A DNA stretch of 64,000 nucleotides from NCBI RefSeq assembly GCF_006345805.1, contig NC_042999.1, forward strand, positions 79,050,001 through 79,114,000, given 5' to 3'. How positions within the stretch are numbered: the first letter of the stretch is position 1; every line of letters begins with the position of its first letter. The notes below the pieces were generated by a model. The model made no database searches. It saw only the letters and a list, made by a program, of their open reading frames with translations, and had not been told where the DNA came from. Below are positions 37,234 to 52,569 of the stretch, one piece after another. A program made the position numbers and the translations under genes. The DNA comes from Octopus sinensis. Taxonomy: Eukaryota.

Positions 37234-37742
37234 TGGACTTGACAGAGCAAAAAATTGGTACGATCATAAACCTGAGGGCATTGTCAAAAATAGAAATGCA
37301 AAAGTCCTACTGGGTTTTATGATTCAGTGTGATCAGAATAGGAAGCCGGACATTGTCTTAATTGAGAAAGAAAACAAACTATGCTGGATCATAGACATAG
37401 CATGCCCAGCTAACGACAAGGTATGCGATAAGGAGGAAAGAAAAGTCGAGAGATATGACAGGTTAGCTTGGGAAGTTAAGCAGTTGTAGTCGAGGAAAAA
37501 GGTAGCAGTAGTACCAATAATTGTCGGAGCCCTGGGAACAGTGAGCACAAATCTCGAGAAGTACGTAGAACAAATAGGGGCTGCAATAAGGGTGGTGCAC
37601 TTGCAGAAAACAGCACTGCTTGGAGCCGCTCGAATACTCCGGAAGGTGCTCGAAAAATAAGAGGTGTTACATTAGTTCACTGGTAGTGAACAGCTGACAC
37701 CATAGTACATCTCCAGCGTTAGAAACTCTGCAAAGGCAATAG
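37234..37742 (+). mobile_element. R4/Dong-like LINE 3' fragment (subfamily 1) in (TAG/TAA)n
   Basis: WYDHKPEGIV, RKPDIVLIEKENKLCWIIDIACP, VVPIIVGALG, LQKTALLGAARILRKVLEK-stop; one internal stop. Confidence 0.9.
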
Positions 37743-37785
37743 TGATAAGAATAATAATAATGATAATAATAATAATAATAATAAT

Positions 37786-38547
37786 GAGGAGAAACCTCTG
37801 CACGGCAAATATGTGGCCCGCAGCAAACAAGCTGATGTTGACCAGAAGCAAACCCATCAGTGGCTACGGAGCTCAGGGCTAAAAGCAGAGAGCGAAGGTT
37901 TCATCCTGGCTGCTCAAGATCAAAGCCTATTAACCCGGAACTACCAGGCCAATGTGATGAAAAGTGGAGCAGACCCAAAATGCCGATTCTGCAACGACAT
38001 GATTGAAACAGTGGACCACCTAATCTCAGGATGTAAAGTCTTAGCACCAGTGGAGTATAAATTAAGACATGACAGAGTTGGCCAATGTCTACACTGGCTA
38101 ATAAGTCGGCATTACAATATCAAAACTGCCGACAAGTGGTATAATCACCACCCTGAGGCAGTAACTGGAGGAGAAAATGTAACCATTCTGTTGGACTTTC
38201 CAGTACATACAGACCGAACCATCAAGGCCAATAAACCAGATATTGTTGTGAAAGACCAAAACAATAAAGTTTGCTTATTGATCGACATGAGCATCCCCTG
38301 TGATCATAATATCTCAGCGAAAGAGTTTGACAAGCTCAGAAAATATAAAGACCTACTCATTGAAATTGAGAAAATGTGGCATCTCAAGGCGGTTACAATA
38401 CCAGTGATCGTAGGAGCACTAGGAATGATCAAGAAGGGAACCGAAAATTATATGAGAATGATCCCTGGCTTACCATCCCTGCAAGAAGTGCAAAAGATTG
38501 TCTTAACTGGTACATCACACGTATTGAAAAGAGCATTGTCGATGTGA
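37786..38547 (+). CDS. Truncated LINE ORF: CCHC zinc knuckle plus restriction-like endonuclease (no RT, no true start)
   Basis: CRFCNDMIETVDHLISGC, RHD, KPDIVVKD..IDMSIP, K..KY, PVIVGALG. Confidence 0.85.
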   Translation, partial: EEKPLHGKYVARSKQADVDQKQTHQWLRSSGLKAESEGFILAAQDQSLLTRNYQANVMKSGADPKCRFCNDMIETVDHLISGCKVLAPVEYKLRHDRVGQCLHWLISRHYNIKTADKWYNHHPEAVTGGENVTILLDFPVHTDRTIKANKPDIVVKDQNNKVCLLIDMSIPCDHNISAKEFDKLRKYKDLLIEIEKMWHLKAVTIPVIVGALGMIKKGTENYMRMIPGLPSLQEVQKIVLTGTSHVLKRALSM

Positions 38548-38716: not shown

Positions 38717-38748
38717 TAATAATAATATAATAATATAATAATAATAAT

Positions 38749-39676
38749 GAGGAGAAACCTCTGCACGGCAATATGTGGCCGCAGCAAACAAGCTGATGTT
38801 GACCAGAAGCAAACCCATCAGTGGCTACGGAGCTCAGGGCTAAAAGCAGAGAGCGAAGGTTTCATCCTGGCTGCTCAAGATCAAAGCCTATTAACCCGGA
38901 ACTACCAGGCCAATGTGATGAAAAGTGGAGCAGACCCAAAATGCCGATTCTGCAACGACATGATTGAAACAGTGGACCACCTAATCTCAGGATGTAAAGT
39001 CTTAGCACCAGTGGAGTATAAATTAAGACATGACAGAGTTGGCCAATGTCTACACTGGCTAATAAGTCGGCATTACAATATCAAAACTGCCGACAAGTGG
39101 TATAATCACCACCCTGAGGCAGTAACTGGAGGAGAAAATGTAACCATTCTGTTGGACTTTCCAGTACATACAGACCGAACCATCAAGGCCAATAAACCAG
39201 ATATTGTTGTGAAAGACCAAAACAATAAAGTTTGCTTATTGATCGACATGAGCATCCCCTGTGATCATAATATCTCAGCGAAAGAGTTTGACAAGCTCAG
39301 AAAATATAAAGACCTACTCATTGAAATTGAGAAAATGTGGCATCTCAAGGCGGTTACAATACCAGTGATCGTAGGAGCACTAGGAATGATCAAGAAGGGA
39401 ACCGAAAATTATATGAGAATGATCCCTGGCTTACCATCCCTGCAAGAAGTGCAAAAGATTGTCTTAACTGGTACATCACACGTATTGAAAAGAGCATTGT
39501 CGATGTGAGAATTATTACTACTCATGTATTTTAATTTAACTTTAAAAAAAAAAAAATGAACGAACTATTGAGTTTAGTTTAATGGCCTACCAATGTATAC
39601 TATGAGTTTCTTTGCCCTAGGAGTCGGGAAGACACTCGGCAAGAAATGGAAGCAAATTTGAAAGAAGAAAAAAAAA

Positions 39677-49489: not shown

Positions 49490-50218
49490 ACACACACAAA
49501 CAAACAAACACACACACACATATTTACACGATGGGCTTCTTTCAGATTTTGTCTACCAAATCCACTCACAAGGCTTTGGTCGGCCCGTGGTTATGGTAGA
49601 AGGCAGGGTAAGTGACATTCTAAATTAATCAGGACATTTAGTAAGTGTCGAGACAATTGCGTATTTACTCCTGTTTGACTTTCTTGTTTATAGCATTGTT
49701 TCATTCATAAAACTATTTCTAAATTAATTTGCCTATATGCTTTATATTCGTCTGTTATTGATACTTTCACGTATCTTAAGTAACGATTAATTTAAAGCTA
49801 TGTCCCAATACATCCATTCTGTCGGTGAATCTTTATTAAGTTCAAATTTCGCCAAGATGAACAAAAATTTCAGTTTTTCAAAATTTTACTGAATTTCCAA
49901 GGAAAGGCAAAGAACTGTGAAGAATCAATCAAGTGTCGAGGTATAAAGAATACATCTTTTTTAAACAAGTCACTTTTTGTTACGTCATACAATCTCTCTA
50001 AATAATATTTCCGATAAAATGAAGAAAAAGGTCTTTTGTTTCGTTGATTTACGAATGAATAAATGAACACACCACACACACATGTATGTGTGTATGTCTG
50101 TTTGTATGTATATAAGAGATTTTTTGTTTCGTTTATTTACGAATGAATAGGTATCTAAAAATACAATATTATATACATATATACATAATAAATAATATAG
50201 TATGTATGTATGTATGTA

Positions 50219-50326
<108 letters not shown>

Positions 50327-50422
50327 CGGGAAGCTTTATGAAAATAAACAAAAGACGAAGGCAGGTGGAAAACAAACGAACAATTGTATTAGTATGGCGC
50401 TCAGGAAATATAATAAAACAAG

Positions 50423-50460
50423 TCTTTAACGTTTCGAGCCTACGCTCTTCAACAGAAAGA
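50423..50460 (-). ncRNA. Minimal hammerhead variant (CUGUUGA core, no stem III) in element 50325-50460
   Basis: Minus strand: tcttt-CTGTTGA-A-GAGC-gtag-GCTC-GAAA-CG-TT-aaaga. Confidence 0.62.
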
Positions 50461-50461
50461 T

Positions 50462-50907
50462 AACAATGATAAATATCAAAGGAGTTAATACAGTAGCGGT
50501 AACACATCGTGACGTATTTTTGCCATTTCAATATGGCTAACCCCTAAGGGTGGATGCTACTGTTTTTTAGCCCCAGGAGGACACACTCCTCCAGCGGCCA
50601 TAGACACACTTTCTGTGTCCTGTCAGTATTTGCAAAGGGAAGTCATCCTTCCCGTCTTCAACTTATGATACACACGGACTCGAGTTTCGAGGTATTGACC
50701 TCTCGTCAGCGTGTGACATCATAGTTGTCGGCGAGAATTAGATTCCTTCACAAATAATTATACTTTTTCCAGCGTCCACTGTCGCTGATATTGAAAAAGT
50801 GAAATCAAACAATGATAAATATCAAAGTGAGTTATATACAGTAGCGGTAACACATCGTGACGTATTTTTGCCATTTCAATATGGCTAACCCCTAAGGGTG
50901 GATGCTA
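50462..50907 (-). mobile_element. Retrozyme-like element: 1.3 copies of a monomer of about 347 nt containing one hammerhead
   Basis: Direct repeats 50462-50559 and 50808-50907 (differing by two 1-nt indels); no ORF; ribozyme at 50671-50715. Confidence 0.82.
50659..50727 (-). ncRNA. Type I hammerhead ribozyme, intact consensus
   Basis: Minus strand: CACACG-CTGACGA-GAGGT-caat-ACCTC-GAAAC-TCGA-GTC-CGTGTG. Stem I extends to about 17 bp with two bulges (caact-atgatg / tatcat-a-agttg). Predicted cut between 50677 and 50676. Confidence 0.92.
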
Positions 50908-52569
50908 TATATATATATATGCGTATATGGGAACAGGACATCACCAACAGTGCAAACAACATGAAATACTTAAACAACGAGGGAAAAGAAATTGAAAACA
51001 GGACAAGTAAACACAGAGAAAGGACCCTTCATCAGTTCTCAGCTGTCTATCTATTCCTCATTTCGAGCATTCAACGCTAATACGAGTCTTCAAAGACAGT
51101 TGATCCCATAAATTCTAAAATAAAATTTAAGATTTATGGTGGGGTGGAGGGGCAAAGTAGGGAATAAAAACAGGACAGTGGGGACATACAAGGAAACCGA
51201 ACGAATAAAAAAACATGGAGAGTCGCTACACCAGAACAAGAGGAAAATAGTGAACGTTGGGAGAAATATTTTCTTTGACAAGAGAAAAAATAGAAGTGAG
51301 AGAGAGAAAAAAACGTCGTCTTTTGAACGTCCGTGCAGGAAAAGATGTTCACGTGAGGAAAAGAAAGATGGACGATGGTCACATGTGAGCAACGAGAGAG
51401 AGAAAAAGAGAAACAAGGGGAGAAAGGCAGATACAAACAAGGAAAATGCCCCTTGTATTTGAATACTATGCAAATATTCTTTTAAAAAACTTTTAAAAAA
51501 CATTTTTCCAAAATGTAATTGTTTTCCATACTTATAGTTGAAAAATTCTCAATGAGTGAAGCCGGCACTGAAATGTTTTTTATAAAATTATTTTAGCATT
51601 TTCTATCTTGACTTTTTACCATATATATATATGTGTGTGTGAGCGTGCGTGCGTGCGCGTATATACATACATACATATATACATACATACATACATACAT
51701 ACATACATACATACATACATACATACATACACGAGTGTGTGCGCGTGCGTAATAAGAACAGTAAAATTCAAGAAATGTATTTACTTCGCAAAAAATATAT
51801 GGAAAATTTAGCGTGTTTTAAGTAATTAGCGTTGATTAATAAATCAAATTACACGCAATATCACATAATTTAACTTTTTTTCAATTTTGTGCAAATATTC
51901 AATCTCAATTTATTATTCTCTTTGCAGTTCCTTCGTGCTTTTTAATACAAATCAATTTTTATCTTAAATGAATTTAATTTAAAATAAACTAGTGCTCATT
52001 GGAGCACTTTCTTCTTATAAGTATATCTGGTGATTACTTTAACTGAAAATTTAACAATTTTATTCGATCTGTAAATGCATATTCTTTAAGTGAATCTATG
52101 AACAAAAAAGCTTTGAAATTGTATTTATTTAAAATAGTTATAAATGGGTTTTAATAGAAAAATACATTATATAAATGGCAAACCTAATAAACCGTAACAT
52201 AAAATTGATCATAAGCTAGTTGTAGTTTTTTAAATATTTTAAATTTCAATTCTGTTGATTTCTTATTGAAACTATGTATATATAAATACATTTCGGTTGC
52301 GATGTATAATGATGTAATTTGAATAATGCTTGTTGCTTACACCACTATGACTACCAGTAGAATACAATTTACAGGTAATAATTCAAATTATTGTAAATGA
52401 TTTTTGTATGTTTTTATAGAGGGTGAGATTTGAAGAAAGTGAAACTAAGTTAACGCATTGGGTGAAAACAATTGTAATAATGCTACTCTATCTTCATATA
52501 GAAATTATTGGCTTCATTGAAAGATGAATGTAAAAAATAGGTTATAGCGTTCAGTTGTTTTTCACATAT

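What the first reader, a model, noticed from the sequence alone, without database searches (positions are those of the whole stretch)
50462..50907. Candidate retrozyme: a 1.3-mer of a non-coding monomer of about 347 nt with an intact hammerhead
Seen: direct repeats of about 100 bp (50462-50559, 50808-50907) bracket a textbook type I hammerhead on the minus strand (CACACG CUGACGA GAGGU-caau-ACCUC GAAAC UCGA GUC CGUGUG). Stem I extends to about 17 bp and the stem III loop UCGA is palindromic; there is no ORF. Known: metazoan non-LTR retrozymes are repeats of a few hundred nt with type I hammerheads that yield circular RNAs, and palindromic loop III permits dimeric cleavage (work of Cervera and de la Pena). 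Inference: a greater-than-unit-length insert is what reverse transcription around a circular or multimeric RNA would leave. I cannot verify whether this family has been described in cephalopods.
Basis: partly seen in the sequence, partly recalled or inferred. Interest (0 to 1): 0.85.

Follow-up and report, generated by a model that had tools for sequence, protein, structure and literature searches.

The report
Hammerhead retrozyme with Penelope insertion signature
A 353-base non-coding unit carrying a hammerhead RNA motif lies in hundreds of copies in this animal genome, inserted into TA repeats as head-to-tail and back-to-back arrays that end at two fixed points; it is a new member of the known animal 'retrozymes', likely pasted in by a Penelope-type enzyme that would run repeatedly round a predicted RNA circle.

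Summary
Observation confirmed. 50462-50907 (minus strand) is 1.26 units of a young family (353-nt consensus; 671 exact core matches in G000) with a canonical type I hammerhead, predicted to cut between 50677 and 50676. It fits the known animal non-LTR retrozymes. Copies are not randomly permuted. In 80 insertions the 3' ends fall at two fixed unit positions (~54, ~97-100), followed by (AT)n in 102 of 105 arms; 5' ends vary. In 36 of 40 back-to-back insertions one arm ends at each site; none repeats a site. An autonomous Penelope-like element (PLE) of this genome does the same (3 of 3). This is the PLE 'tail' signature. Units within an insertion, both arms included, share one haplotype (cross-arm 18/18 to 38/38 at five sites), and arrays reach 10.5 units across a seamless cleavage site. 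Best reading: a PLE enzyme primes twice on one circular monomer and rolls (0.62). A linear uncut multimer remains possible: 18 of 40 single-arm 5' ends cluster, and 1 of 3 traced variants has a possible source array. No partner PLE was identified; cleavage, expression and circles are untested.

The parts
50462..50907 (-). Retrozyme insertion, 1.26 units: unit position 1 at 50907, full unit 50907-50560 (348 nt), second partial unit 50559-50462 (positions 1-100)
50671..50715 (-). Type I hammerhead core: stem I 50715-50710 / 50676-50671, CUGACGA 50709-50703, stem II and loop 50702-50689, GAAAC 50688-50684, loop III UCGA 50683-50680, GUC 50679-50677; predicted cut between 50677 and 50676
50655..50728 (-). 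Extended stem I with internal loop (loop 1); the window copy lacks one U of the consensus loop
50678..50685 (.). Perfect 8-nt palindrome spanning helix III (predicted 8-bp intermolecular helix in a dimer, -10.7 kcal/mol)
50462..50465 (-). 3' end of the insert at family end site B (unit position 97-100), inferred reverse-transcription start
50506..50509 (-). Family end site A (unit position 51-54; also at 50854-50857), not used by this copy
50908..50921 (.). (TA)n run at the 5' junction of the insert
50326..50461 (-). Neighbour, joined without a TA run: last 136 nt of a young autonomous PLE (GIY-YIG frame upstream in other copies), with a degenerate hammerhead-like motif
50166..50325 (.). (TA)n microsatellite beyond the neighbouring PLE end
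50922..51135 (-). Neighbour: 3' end of another repeat that ends in TA; similar pieces lie beside GIY-YIG loci

Best explanation
This is one copy of a young non-coding 353-nt hammerhead repeat family that inserts into (TA)n with two fixed 3' ends, and it is likely a non-LTR retrozyme whose RNA is predicted to self-cleave and circularise and would then be copied into the genome by a Penelope-like RT/GIY-YIG protein. Steps. Shown: copy number, tandem and back-to-back arrays, TA targets, two fixed ends 46 nt apart, one end of each kind in back-to-back insertions, one haplotype per insertion, seamless passage across the cleavage site. Inferred: (1) a transcript with two hammerheads cuts at both, helped by the palindromic helix III, and a host ligase closes the monomer (shown for coral, mussel and axolotl retrozymes, PMC7229834); (2) a PLE protein, probably a dimer, nicks both strands of a TA run and starts reverse transcription inside the RNA, one strand at site A and the other at site B (two internal starts and two-strand extension shown in vitro for an anole PLE, PMC11167929); (3) each polymerase runs round the same circle for 0.2 to 10 laps; (4) the two cDNAs are joined head to head, or one is joined to the target at a TA/AT microhomology. 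The window copy is a single site-B arm of 1.26 laps. Family identity plus PLE mobilisation about 0.9; circular template about 0.65.
For: 671 exact core matches, control 0; 93-99% identity of full-length matches. 105 of 126 arm pieces end at site A or B by a strict caller, and 102 of those 105 run into TATA/ATAT. Back-to-back insertions: 30 of 40 A+B by the strict caller, 6 more by eye, 0 A+A, 0 B+B, 4 with one truncated end (binomial p 9e-10 on the 30). The same rule in a sister subfamily (22 of 24 pairs, read from coordinates only, two look duplicated) and in an autonomous PLE of this genome (3 of 3). The same two ends recur in a 70%-identical older subfamily. Mixed insertions at five common polymorphic sites: 0/73, 0/75, 1/38, 1/45, 1/55 against expected pair identity 0.81, 0.72, 0.50, 0.63, 0.50; both arms agree 37/37, 38/38, 18/18, 23/23, 29/29; 33 rarer variants are in all units of their insertion, in 24 insertions. 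Divergence within arms 0.79%, across arms 0.65%, between insertions 1.47%; in 5 of 32 back-to-back pairs neither arm could be a fold-back copy of the other. For 2 of 3 traced all-unit variants (a 7-unit array; a two-armed insertion) no source locus was found: the only other matches lie on another haplotype or an 88% diverged copy. All-unit variants are richer in A>G/T>C than single-unit ones, which are mostly G>A/C>T (11:4 vs 30:53, p 0.010). The cleavage-site 12-mer is intact in 176 of 192 passes, and only 4 of 120 5' ends lie within 5 nt of it.
Against: 18 of 40 single-arm 5' ends fall in unit positions 1-50 (p 3e-6), which a linear transcript starting there would also give. One of 3 traced variants has a sister locus (L218) with the variant in all units and an arm long enough to be a linear source; the exact patterns miss copies with nearby indels (2 of 4 in L218), and a source may be absent from the assembly. 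22 variants occur in some but not all units, several in period-2, period-4 or adjacent patterns, which need multimeric templates or DNA-level duplication. In 27 of 32 back-to-back pairs one arm lies within the range of the other. In the anole PLE the uncut RNA was the main substrate in vitro (PMC11167929), and 8 of 9 Xenopus retrozyme dimers did not cleave (10.64898/2026.07.22.740005). Isolated helix III is unfavourable (+1.5 kcal/mol) and has near-zero probability in the folded circle. No autonomous partner sharing sequence was found. The sample is selected for an intact core or a long match, so reading through the cleavage site is partly built in.
Confidence: 0.62

Rival explanations
1. Same element, same PLE enzyme, but the template is a linear, uncut transcript that starts near unit position 10-40 and spans more than one unit (pLTR logic). 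A 1.08-mer regenerates itself; longer homogeneous arrays descend from homogeneous source arrays or from DNA-level duplication between the terminal repeats.
For: 5' ends cluster at positions 1-50 in 18 of 40 single-arm copies, many of 1.07-1.13 units; L218 could be a linear source for the C23 insertion; periodic partial variants in four long arrays; uncut RNA is the main substrate of the anole PLE in vitro.
Against: It does not explain how many different rare variants became fixed in every unit and in both arms (33 variants, 24 insertions); 2 of 3 traced variants have no source array; the 5' cluster is a 45-nt zone, not a sharp start; array length could only shrink at each round.
Confidence: 0.24
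2. The template is the cleaved linear monomer and the RT jumps from its 5' end to the 3' end of the same or a sister monomer, giving tandem units without a covalent circle.
For: Would also give one haplotype per insertion if monomers come from one locus.
Against: No excess of changes at the cleavage site (176 of 192 passes intact, within the range of other 12-mers) and no pile-up of 5' ends there (4 of 120).
Confidence: 0.06
3. The unit is the pseudo-LTR of an ordinary coding PLE not yet found, and the arrays are its truncated copies.
For: All insertion hallmarks are those of PLEs; only part of the PLE diversity was examined (150 of 5029 GIY-YIG candidates scored).
Against: Up to 10.5 head-to-tail units with no coding sequence between them; no PLE terminal repeat resembled the unit in the 40 GIY-YIG loci and the further PLE loci fetched; the three direct PLE-retrozyme junctions involve unrelated, truncated PLE ends.
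Confidence: 0.05
4. A satellite DNA spread and amplified at the DNA level, with the hammerhead as a relic.
For: Some arrays show block duplications.
Against: Fixed 3' ends, variable 5' ends, TA targets and the A+B rule; core and helices kept across subfamilies 70% apart.
Confidence: 0.03

Closest known systems
Metazoan non-LTR retrozymes (Cervera and de la Pena 2020, PMC7229834; parts 2-4 of 6 read, supplement not readable)
   Same: Non-coding tandem unit of 150-450 bp (mussel 350-390, axolotl 353), GC under 50%, canonical type I hammerhead with a 2-bp helix III and tetraloop, highly self-paired fold, dispersed and tandem copies.
   Different: Circular RNA and cleavage were shown there and are untested here. 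The parts read describe no fixed ends, TA targeting or back-to-back arms, and name PLEs only as candidate mobilisers. Target duplications cannot be resolved in TA runs here.
Animal retrozymes as non-autonomous PLE derivatives (Li, Clavereau, Pollet 2026, 10.64898/2026.07.22.740005; parts 1-3 of 5 read)
   Same: Same conclusion that PLEs mobilise retrozymes; monomers to multimers.
   Different: Their evidence is co-occurrence and pLTR homology in vertebrates (24 of 57 Xenopus families); no mollusc among the groups named, no insertion-end analysis in the parts read. Here the evidence is insertion anatomy, and no homologous pLTR was found.
PLE 'tail' and internal initiation: anole Poseidon element (Frangieh et al. 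2024, PMC11167929; parts 1-2 of 4 read) and PLE architecture (Craig et al. 2021, PMC8557442; passages)
   Same: [quoted passage not shown]
   Different: Those are coding elements; the tail here is 46 nt; the in vitro work saw no difference of start site between strands, whereas here the two arms use complementary sites almost without exception.
Non-autonomous Chlamys PLEs such as MRC1 (PMC8557442; passage)
   Same: Non-coding, multicopy head-to-tail insertions moved by a PLE.
   Different: They share 3'-end sequence with their autonomous family and are not described with a hammerhead; this unit has one and shares no sequence with the PLEs examined.

Membership tests
Type I hammerhead ribozyme | Core CUGANGA / GAAA / NUH with stems I-III, open at stem I | tested here: met
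   Rfam RF00163, 45 of 45 positions, 32.2 bits, E 6.5e-6, below the gathering score of 34; core nearly invariant in ~190 units (sample selected on the core)
Type I hammerhead ribozyme | Helices kept under divergence | tested here: met
   27 sequences from three subfamilies: stem I pairs 22-27 of 27, inner stem II 24-26 of 27, stem III 25 of 27; the first stem II pair only 12 of 27 (C-A in 15); loop III UCGA in the young and CCGG or its one-step variants in the old subfamily; scan conditioned on the core
Type I hammerhead ribozyme | Self-cleavage as monomer or dimer | not testable with these tools
   Only folding energies
Non-LTR retrozyme | Non-coding unit of 150-450 bp with one type I hammerhead, in tandem and dispersed copies | tested here: met
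   353 nt, 671 core matches, arrays to 10.45 units
Non-LTR retrozyme | No LTR/PBS/PPT architecture with a distinct internal region | tested here: met
   The direct repeats are part of the repeating unit; PBS and PPT were not searched for separately
Non-LTR retrozyme | Stable self-paired fold of the unit | tested here: met
   Circular fold -117 kcal/mol, z -7.4 against 60 shuffles
Non-LTR retrozyme | Expressed as linear and circular monomeric RNA | tested here: inconclusive
   Only assembled contigs of runs not on record as RNA
Non-LTR retrozyme | Target-site duplication | tested here: inconclusive
   Insertions lie in (TA)n, where a duplication cannot be told
PLE-mobilised element | Two fixed 3' ends (tail), variable 5' truncation, partial tandems, inverted 5' copies, AT-rich targets | tested here: met
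   autonomous control
PLE-mobilised element | Sequence shared with the terminal repeat of an autonomous partner | tested here: not met
   None in the PLE loci fetched; the search covered a small part of the genome's PLEs
Autonomous PLE | RT plus GIY-YIG open reading frame | tested here: not met
   No such frame in the unit or the window

The most novel reading that the evidence does not exclude
The insertions are a genomic record of double rolling-circle reverse transcription: a dimeric Penelope-like enzyme primes both nicked strands of a TA target on one ribozyme-made RNA circle, one protomer at each of two fixed sites 46 nt apart, and each rolls for up to ten laps. That would be direct evidence for the so far only proposed retrozyme life cycle and would explain the PLE tail-at-one-end rule as a built-in asymmetry of the dimer; the partner would recognise the RNA by structure, since no shared sequence was found.
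Probability: 0.45. Interest if true: 0.72.

Novelty: new member of a known kind. Interest (0 to 1): 0.5.

Why it matters
The element type is known from many animals, a mussel included, so the locus itself is ordinary. What is useful is that this family is young and numerous enough to read the mechanism off the genome. How animal retrozymes are copied has been a proposal (circle plus a borrowed RT, PLEs as candidates). Here the insertions carry the full PLE signature, a near-strict one-end-of-each-kind rule, and one haplotype per insertion. That turns two open questions, whether the circle is the template and why PLE tails sit at one end, into defined experiments with a 353-nt RNA, two mapped start sites and several intact young PLE frames from the same genome. 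Six literature searches listed no paper on a cephalopod retrozyme or on such an end analysis for a retrozyme; the library lacks most subscription journals and Repbase/Dfam were not available, so the family may already be catalogued as a repeat.

Tried and rejected
Rfam at gathering threshold: blank for the whole window; the match appears only by E-value. Expression: no RNA holder listed; contigs of four runs guessed to be RNA cover the unit, and one is 383 nt (353 + 30, the shape of a cyclic contig), but tandem DNA or multimeric RNA gives the same, so this is not used as evidence. Partner search: a copy next to a 775-aa PLE frame (L135) proved to be an independent insertion of a sister subfamily between TA runs; PLE families called A (781 aa), B (775 aa; RT and GIY-YIG by Pfam), F and G have their own terminal sequences and share none with the unit; a PLE-F junction with an old retrozyme copy is single among the scored matches. 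Random permutation of start points: rejected. Pile-up of 5' ends or scars at the cleavage site: none. A-to-I editing as the source of all-unit variants: A>G 6 against T>C 5, no strand asymmetry. Loci of the sister subfamily were not retrieved, so its ends were read from coordinates only. One region (C4_73542774) was dropped before counting as a flank-identical duplicate of C12752. The supplement of PMC7229834 could not be read and bioRxiv supplements are closed; they may list cephalopod elements. Earlier notes of this scan held nothing for this genome or sequence.

Full report
1. Observation. The stretch 50462-50907 is as described. Two copies of about 100 nt lie 346-348 nt apart and bracket, on the minus strand, a type I hammerhead at 50715-50671 that matches Rfam Hammerhead_1 over all 45 positions (32.2 bits, E 6.5e-6; gathering score 34). 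The predicted cut is between 50677 and 50676. The unit folds far better than shuffles. It is non-coding. I number the unit from window 50907 downward; the insert is positions 1-348 plus 1-100, or 1.26 units.

2. It is a young family. The own genome G000 (2.72 Gb; the organism is named by no call) holds 671 exact matches to a 27-nt core, control 0. The first 100 listed fall into 58 clusters by my hand count, which extrapolates to about 390 loci. Full-length matches are 93-99% identical (40 of 1235 candidates scored). The majority unit from 179 full units is 353 nt; the window copy has five single-base deletions in its full unit, one in loop 1, and two in the partial unit. A sister subfamily (88% identical, itself 95-98% uniform) and an older one (about 70%) exist. 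Across 27 hammerheads from the three, helices are kept, stem II changes from GAGG/CCUC to YGGG/CYCA, and loop III changes from UCGA to CCGG (11 of 27; 11 more are CUGG or CCAG, likely CpG decay), so that helix III stays a perfect 8-nt palindrome (the scan was conditioned on the core). A short palindromic helix III is the known sign of dimeric cleavage (PMC4209133, passages).

3. Insertion anatomy. I merged 100 loci into 78 regions (all 33 core clusters of contig C1, 23 of the 25 listed for C2, and the best long matches), dropped one duplicate, and parsed 80 insertions with 126 arm pieces. The 3' ends, in ribozyme sense, are fixed: 60 at site A (position 50-54), 45 at site B (93-101), 21 not called, mostly internal pieces or ends with local changes. 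102 of the 105 called ends run into TATA/ATAT. 5' ends vary. 89 of 126 pieces exceed one unit, 29 exceed two, the longest is 10.45. Forty insertions are back-to-back pairs: 30 A+B by the strict caller, six more by eye, four with one truncated end, none A+A or B+B. The sister subfamily shows 22 such pairs of 24 from coordinates alone, and three of three back-to-back insertions of an autonomous 775-aa RT/GIY-YIG element also have one short and one long end. These are the hallmarks of Penelope-like elements: partial tandems, inverted 5'-truncated copies, a 30-40 bp tail often at one end, (TA)n targets (PMC8557442, passages), and two internal RT start sites that define the tail (PMC11167929, parts 1-2 of 4).

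4. One template per insertion. At five common polymorphic sites, mixed insertions number 0/73, 0/75, 1/38, 1/45 and 1/55, and the two arms agree in 37/37, 38/38, 18/18, 23/23 and 29/29 cases. Of rarer variants at positions covered twice or more, 33 are in all units (24 insertions), 22 in some, 168 in one. Divergence is 0.79% within arms, 0.65% across arms and 1.47% between insertions; in 5 of 32 pairs neither arm can be a fold-back copy of the other. Arms cross the cleavage site without a scar (176 of 192 passes intact) and rarely stop there (4 of 120). I traced three all-unit variants genome-wide. Two (all 7 units of an array on C1; all 3 covered units, both arms, on C5) have one other match each, on a different haplotype or a diverged copy. 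The third has a sister insertion with the variant in all four units and an arm long enough to have served as a linear source. Exact patterns missed 2 of those 4 units, so absence of a source is soft.

5. Results against the circle. Single-arm 5' ends cluster at positions 1-50 (18 of 40), often at 1.07-1.13 units. A polymerase stalling just after a full lap would give this, and so would a linear transcript that starts there. Four long arrays show period-2, period-4 or adjacent repeats of variants, which need dimeric or longer templates or later duplication. Uncut RNA was the main substrate of the anole PLE in vitro, and 8 of 9 Xenopus dimers did not cleave. Assembly polishing could also even out arrays; I could not test it.

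6. Partner. The genome has several young PLE families with intact frames (150 of 5029 candidates scored). None of those fetched shares terminal sequence with the unit. Three loci join a truncated PLE directly to the 5' side of a retrozyme (L093, L047, L225), and the window copy joins its site-B end directly to the last 136 nt of a young PLE, at an internal AT. These may be template switches or insertion with deletion; they name no single partner.

7. Mechanism and odds. Most likely (0.62): transcription, double self-cleavage, ligation to a circle, then target-primed reverse transcription by a dimeric PLE protein that starts at A on one strand and at B on the other and rolls. Copy number, ends, targets, pairing and clonality are shown; cleavage, circle, dimer and partner are inferred. 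Rivals: linear uncut multimer (0.24), jumping on linear monomers (0.06), pLTR of an unfound PLE (0.05), DNA-level satellite (0.03).

8. Known relatives and novelty. The unit meets the sequence-level definition of a metazoan non-LTR retrozyme (PMC7229834, parts 2-4 of 6; PMC7761336, passages); expression as a circle could not be tested. A 2026 preprint argues that animal retrozymes are non-autonomous PLE derivatives, from co-occurrence and pLTR homology (parts 1-3 of 5). So this is a new member of a known kind. I found no paper on a cephalopod example or on an insertion-end and clonality analysis of a retrozyme in six searches; supplements and repeat databases that I could not see may hold the family. 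Two earlier scan notes from other genomes describe a sea-squirt retrozyme and a tRNA-bearing PLE-type repeat in TA runs; I did not check them. Interest 0.5: the locus is ordinary, the family-level mechanistic record is the part worth a specialist's time.

Noticed in passing
window 50166-51731: A nest of PLE-type ends in TA microsatellites: the 3' end of a young PLE (50326-50461), the retrozyme, another TA-ending repeat (50922-51135) and a 73% match to the 3' end of PLE family F (about 51445-51731, + strand).
   Followed up: partly
window 50461/50462: The retrozyme's site-B end is fused, without a TA run, to an internal AT of the neighbouring PLE end, which is 100% identical to other genomic copies; the whole 50326-50907 block may be one template-switch insertion.
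   Followed up: partly
L093:1922/1923, L047:1123, L225:~570: Truncated PLE coding or 3' sequence joined directly to the 5' side of a retrozyme arm; chimeras or insertion-linked deletions.
   Followed up: partly
L185:5158-5900; L223-L230: Young autonomous PLE families whose hammerhead-like motifs have altered cores (CCGAAGA in family B copies, UUGAAAA in family F) yet are recently active; each has two 3' ends about 35-40 nt apart.
   Followed up: partly
L137:1174-2610 and L141:6003-7439: PLE family A has a separate 479-codon open frame upstream of the RT/GIY-YIG frame, with no convincing Pfam match.
   Followed up: no
window 54368 (-), 54655 (+), 8758 (+), 41043 (+): Further hammerhead-like motifs from a loose scan; the two near 54.5 kb are a back-to-back pair related to one at L150:6955.
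   Followed up: no
L078 (C11432), L079, L077, L093: Long arrays with period-2, period-4 or adjacent repeats of variants: dimeric circles, block duplications or assembly artefacts.
   Followed up: partly
L065 (C1:140526155): Short 42-nt pieces (unit 59-100) repeated between TA runs, suggesting local re-duplication of the tail.
   Followed up: no
window 37723-38547 and 38726-39508 (+): Two near-identical tandem frames of about 260-270 codons that look like the C-terminal end of a non-LTR retrotransposon protein (recalled resemblance, not tested).
   Followed up: no
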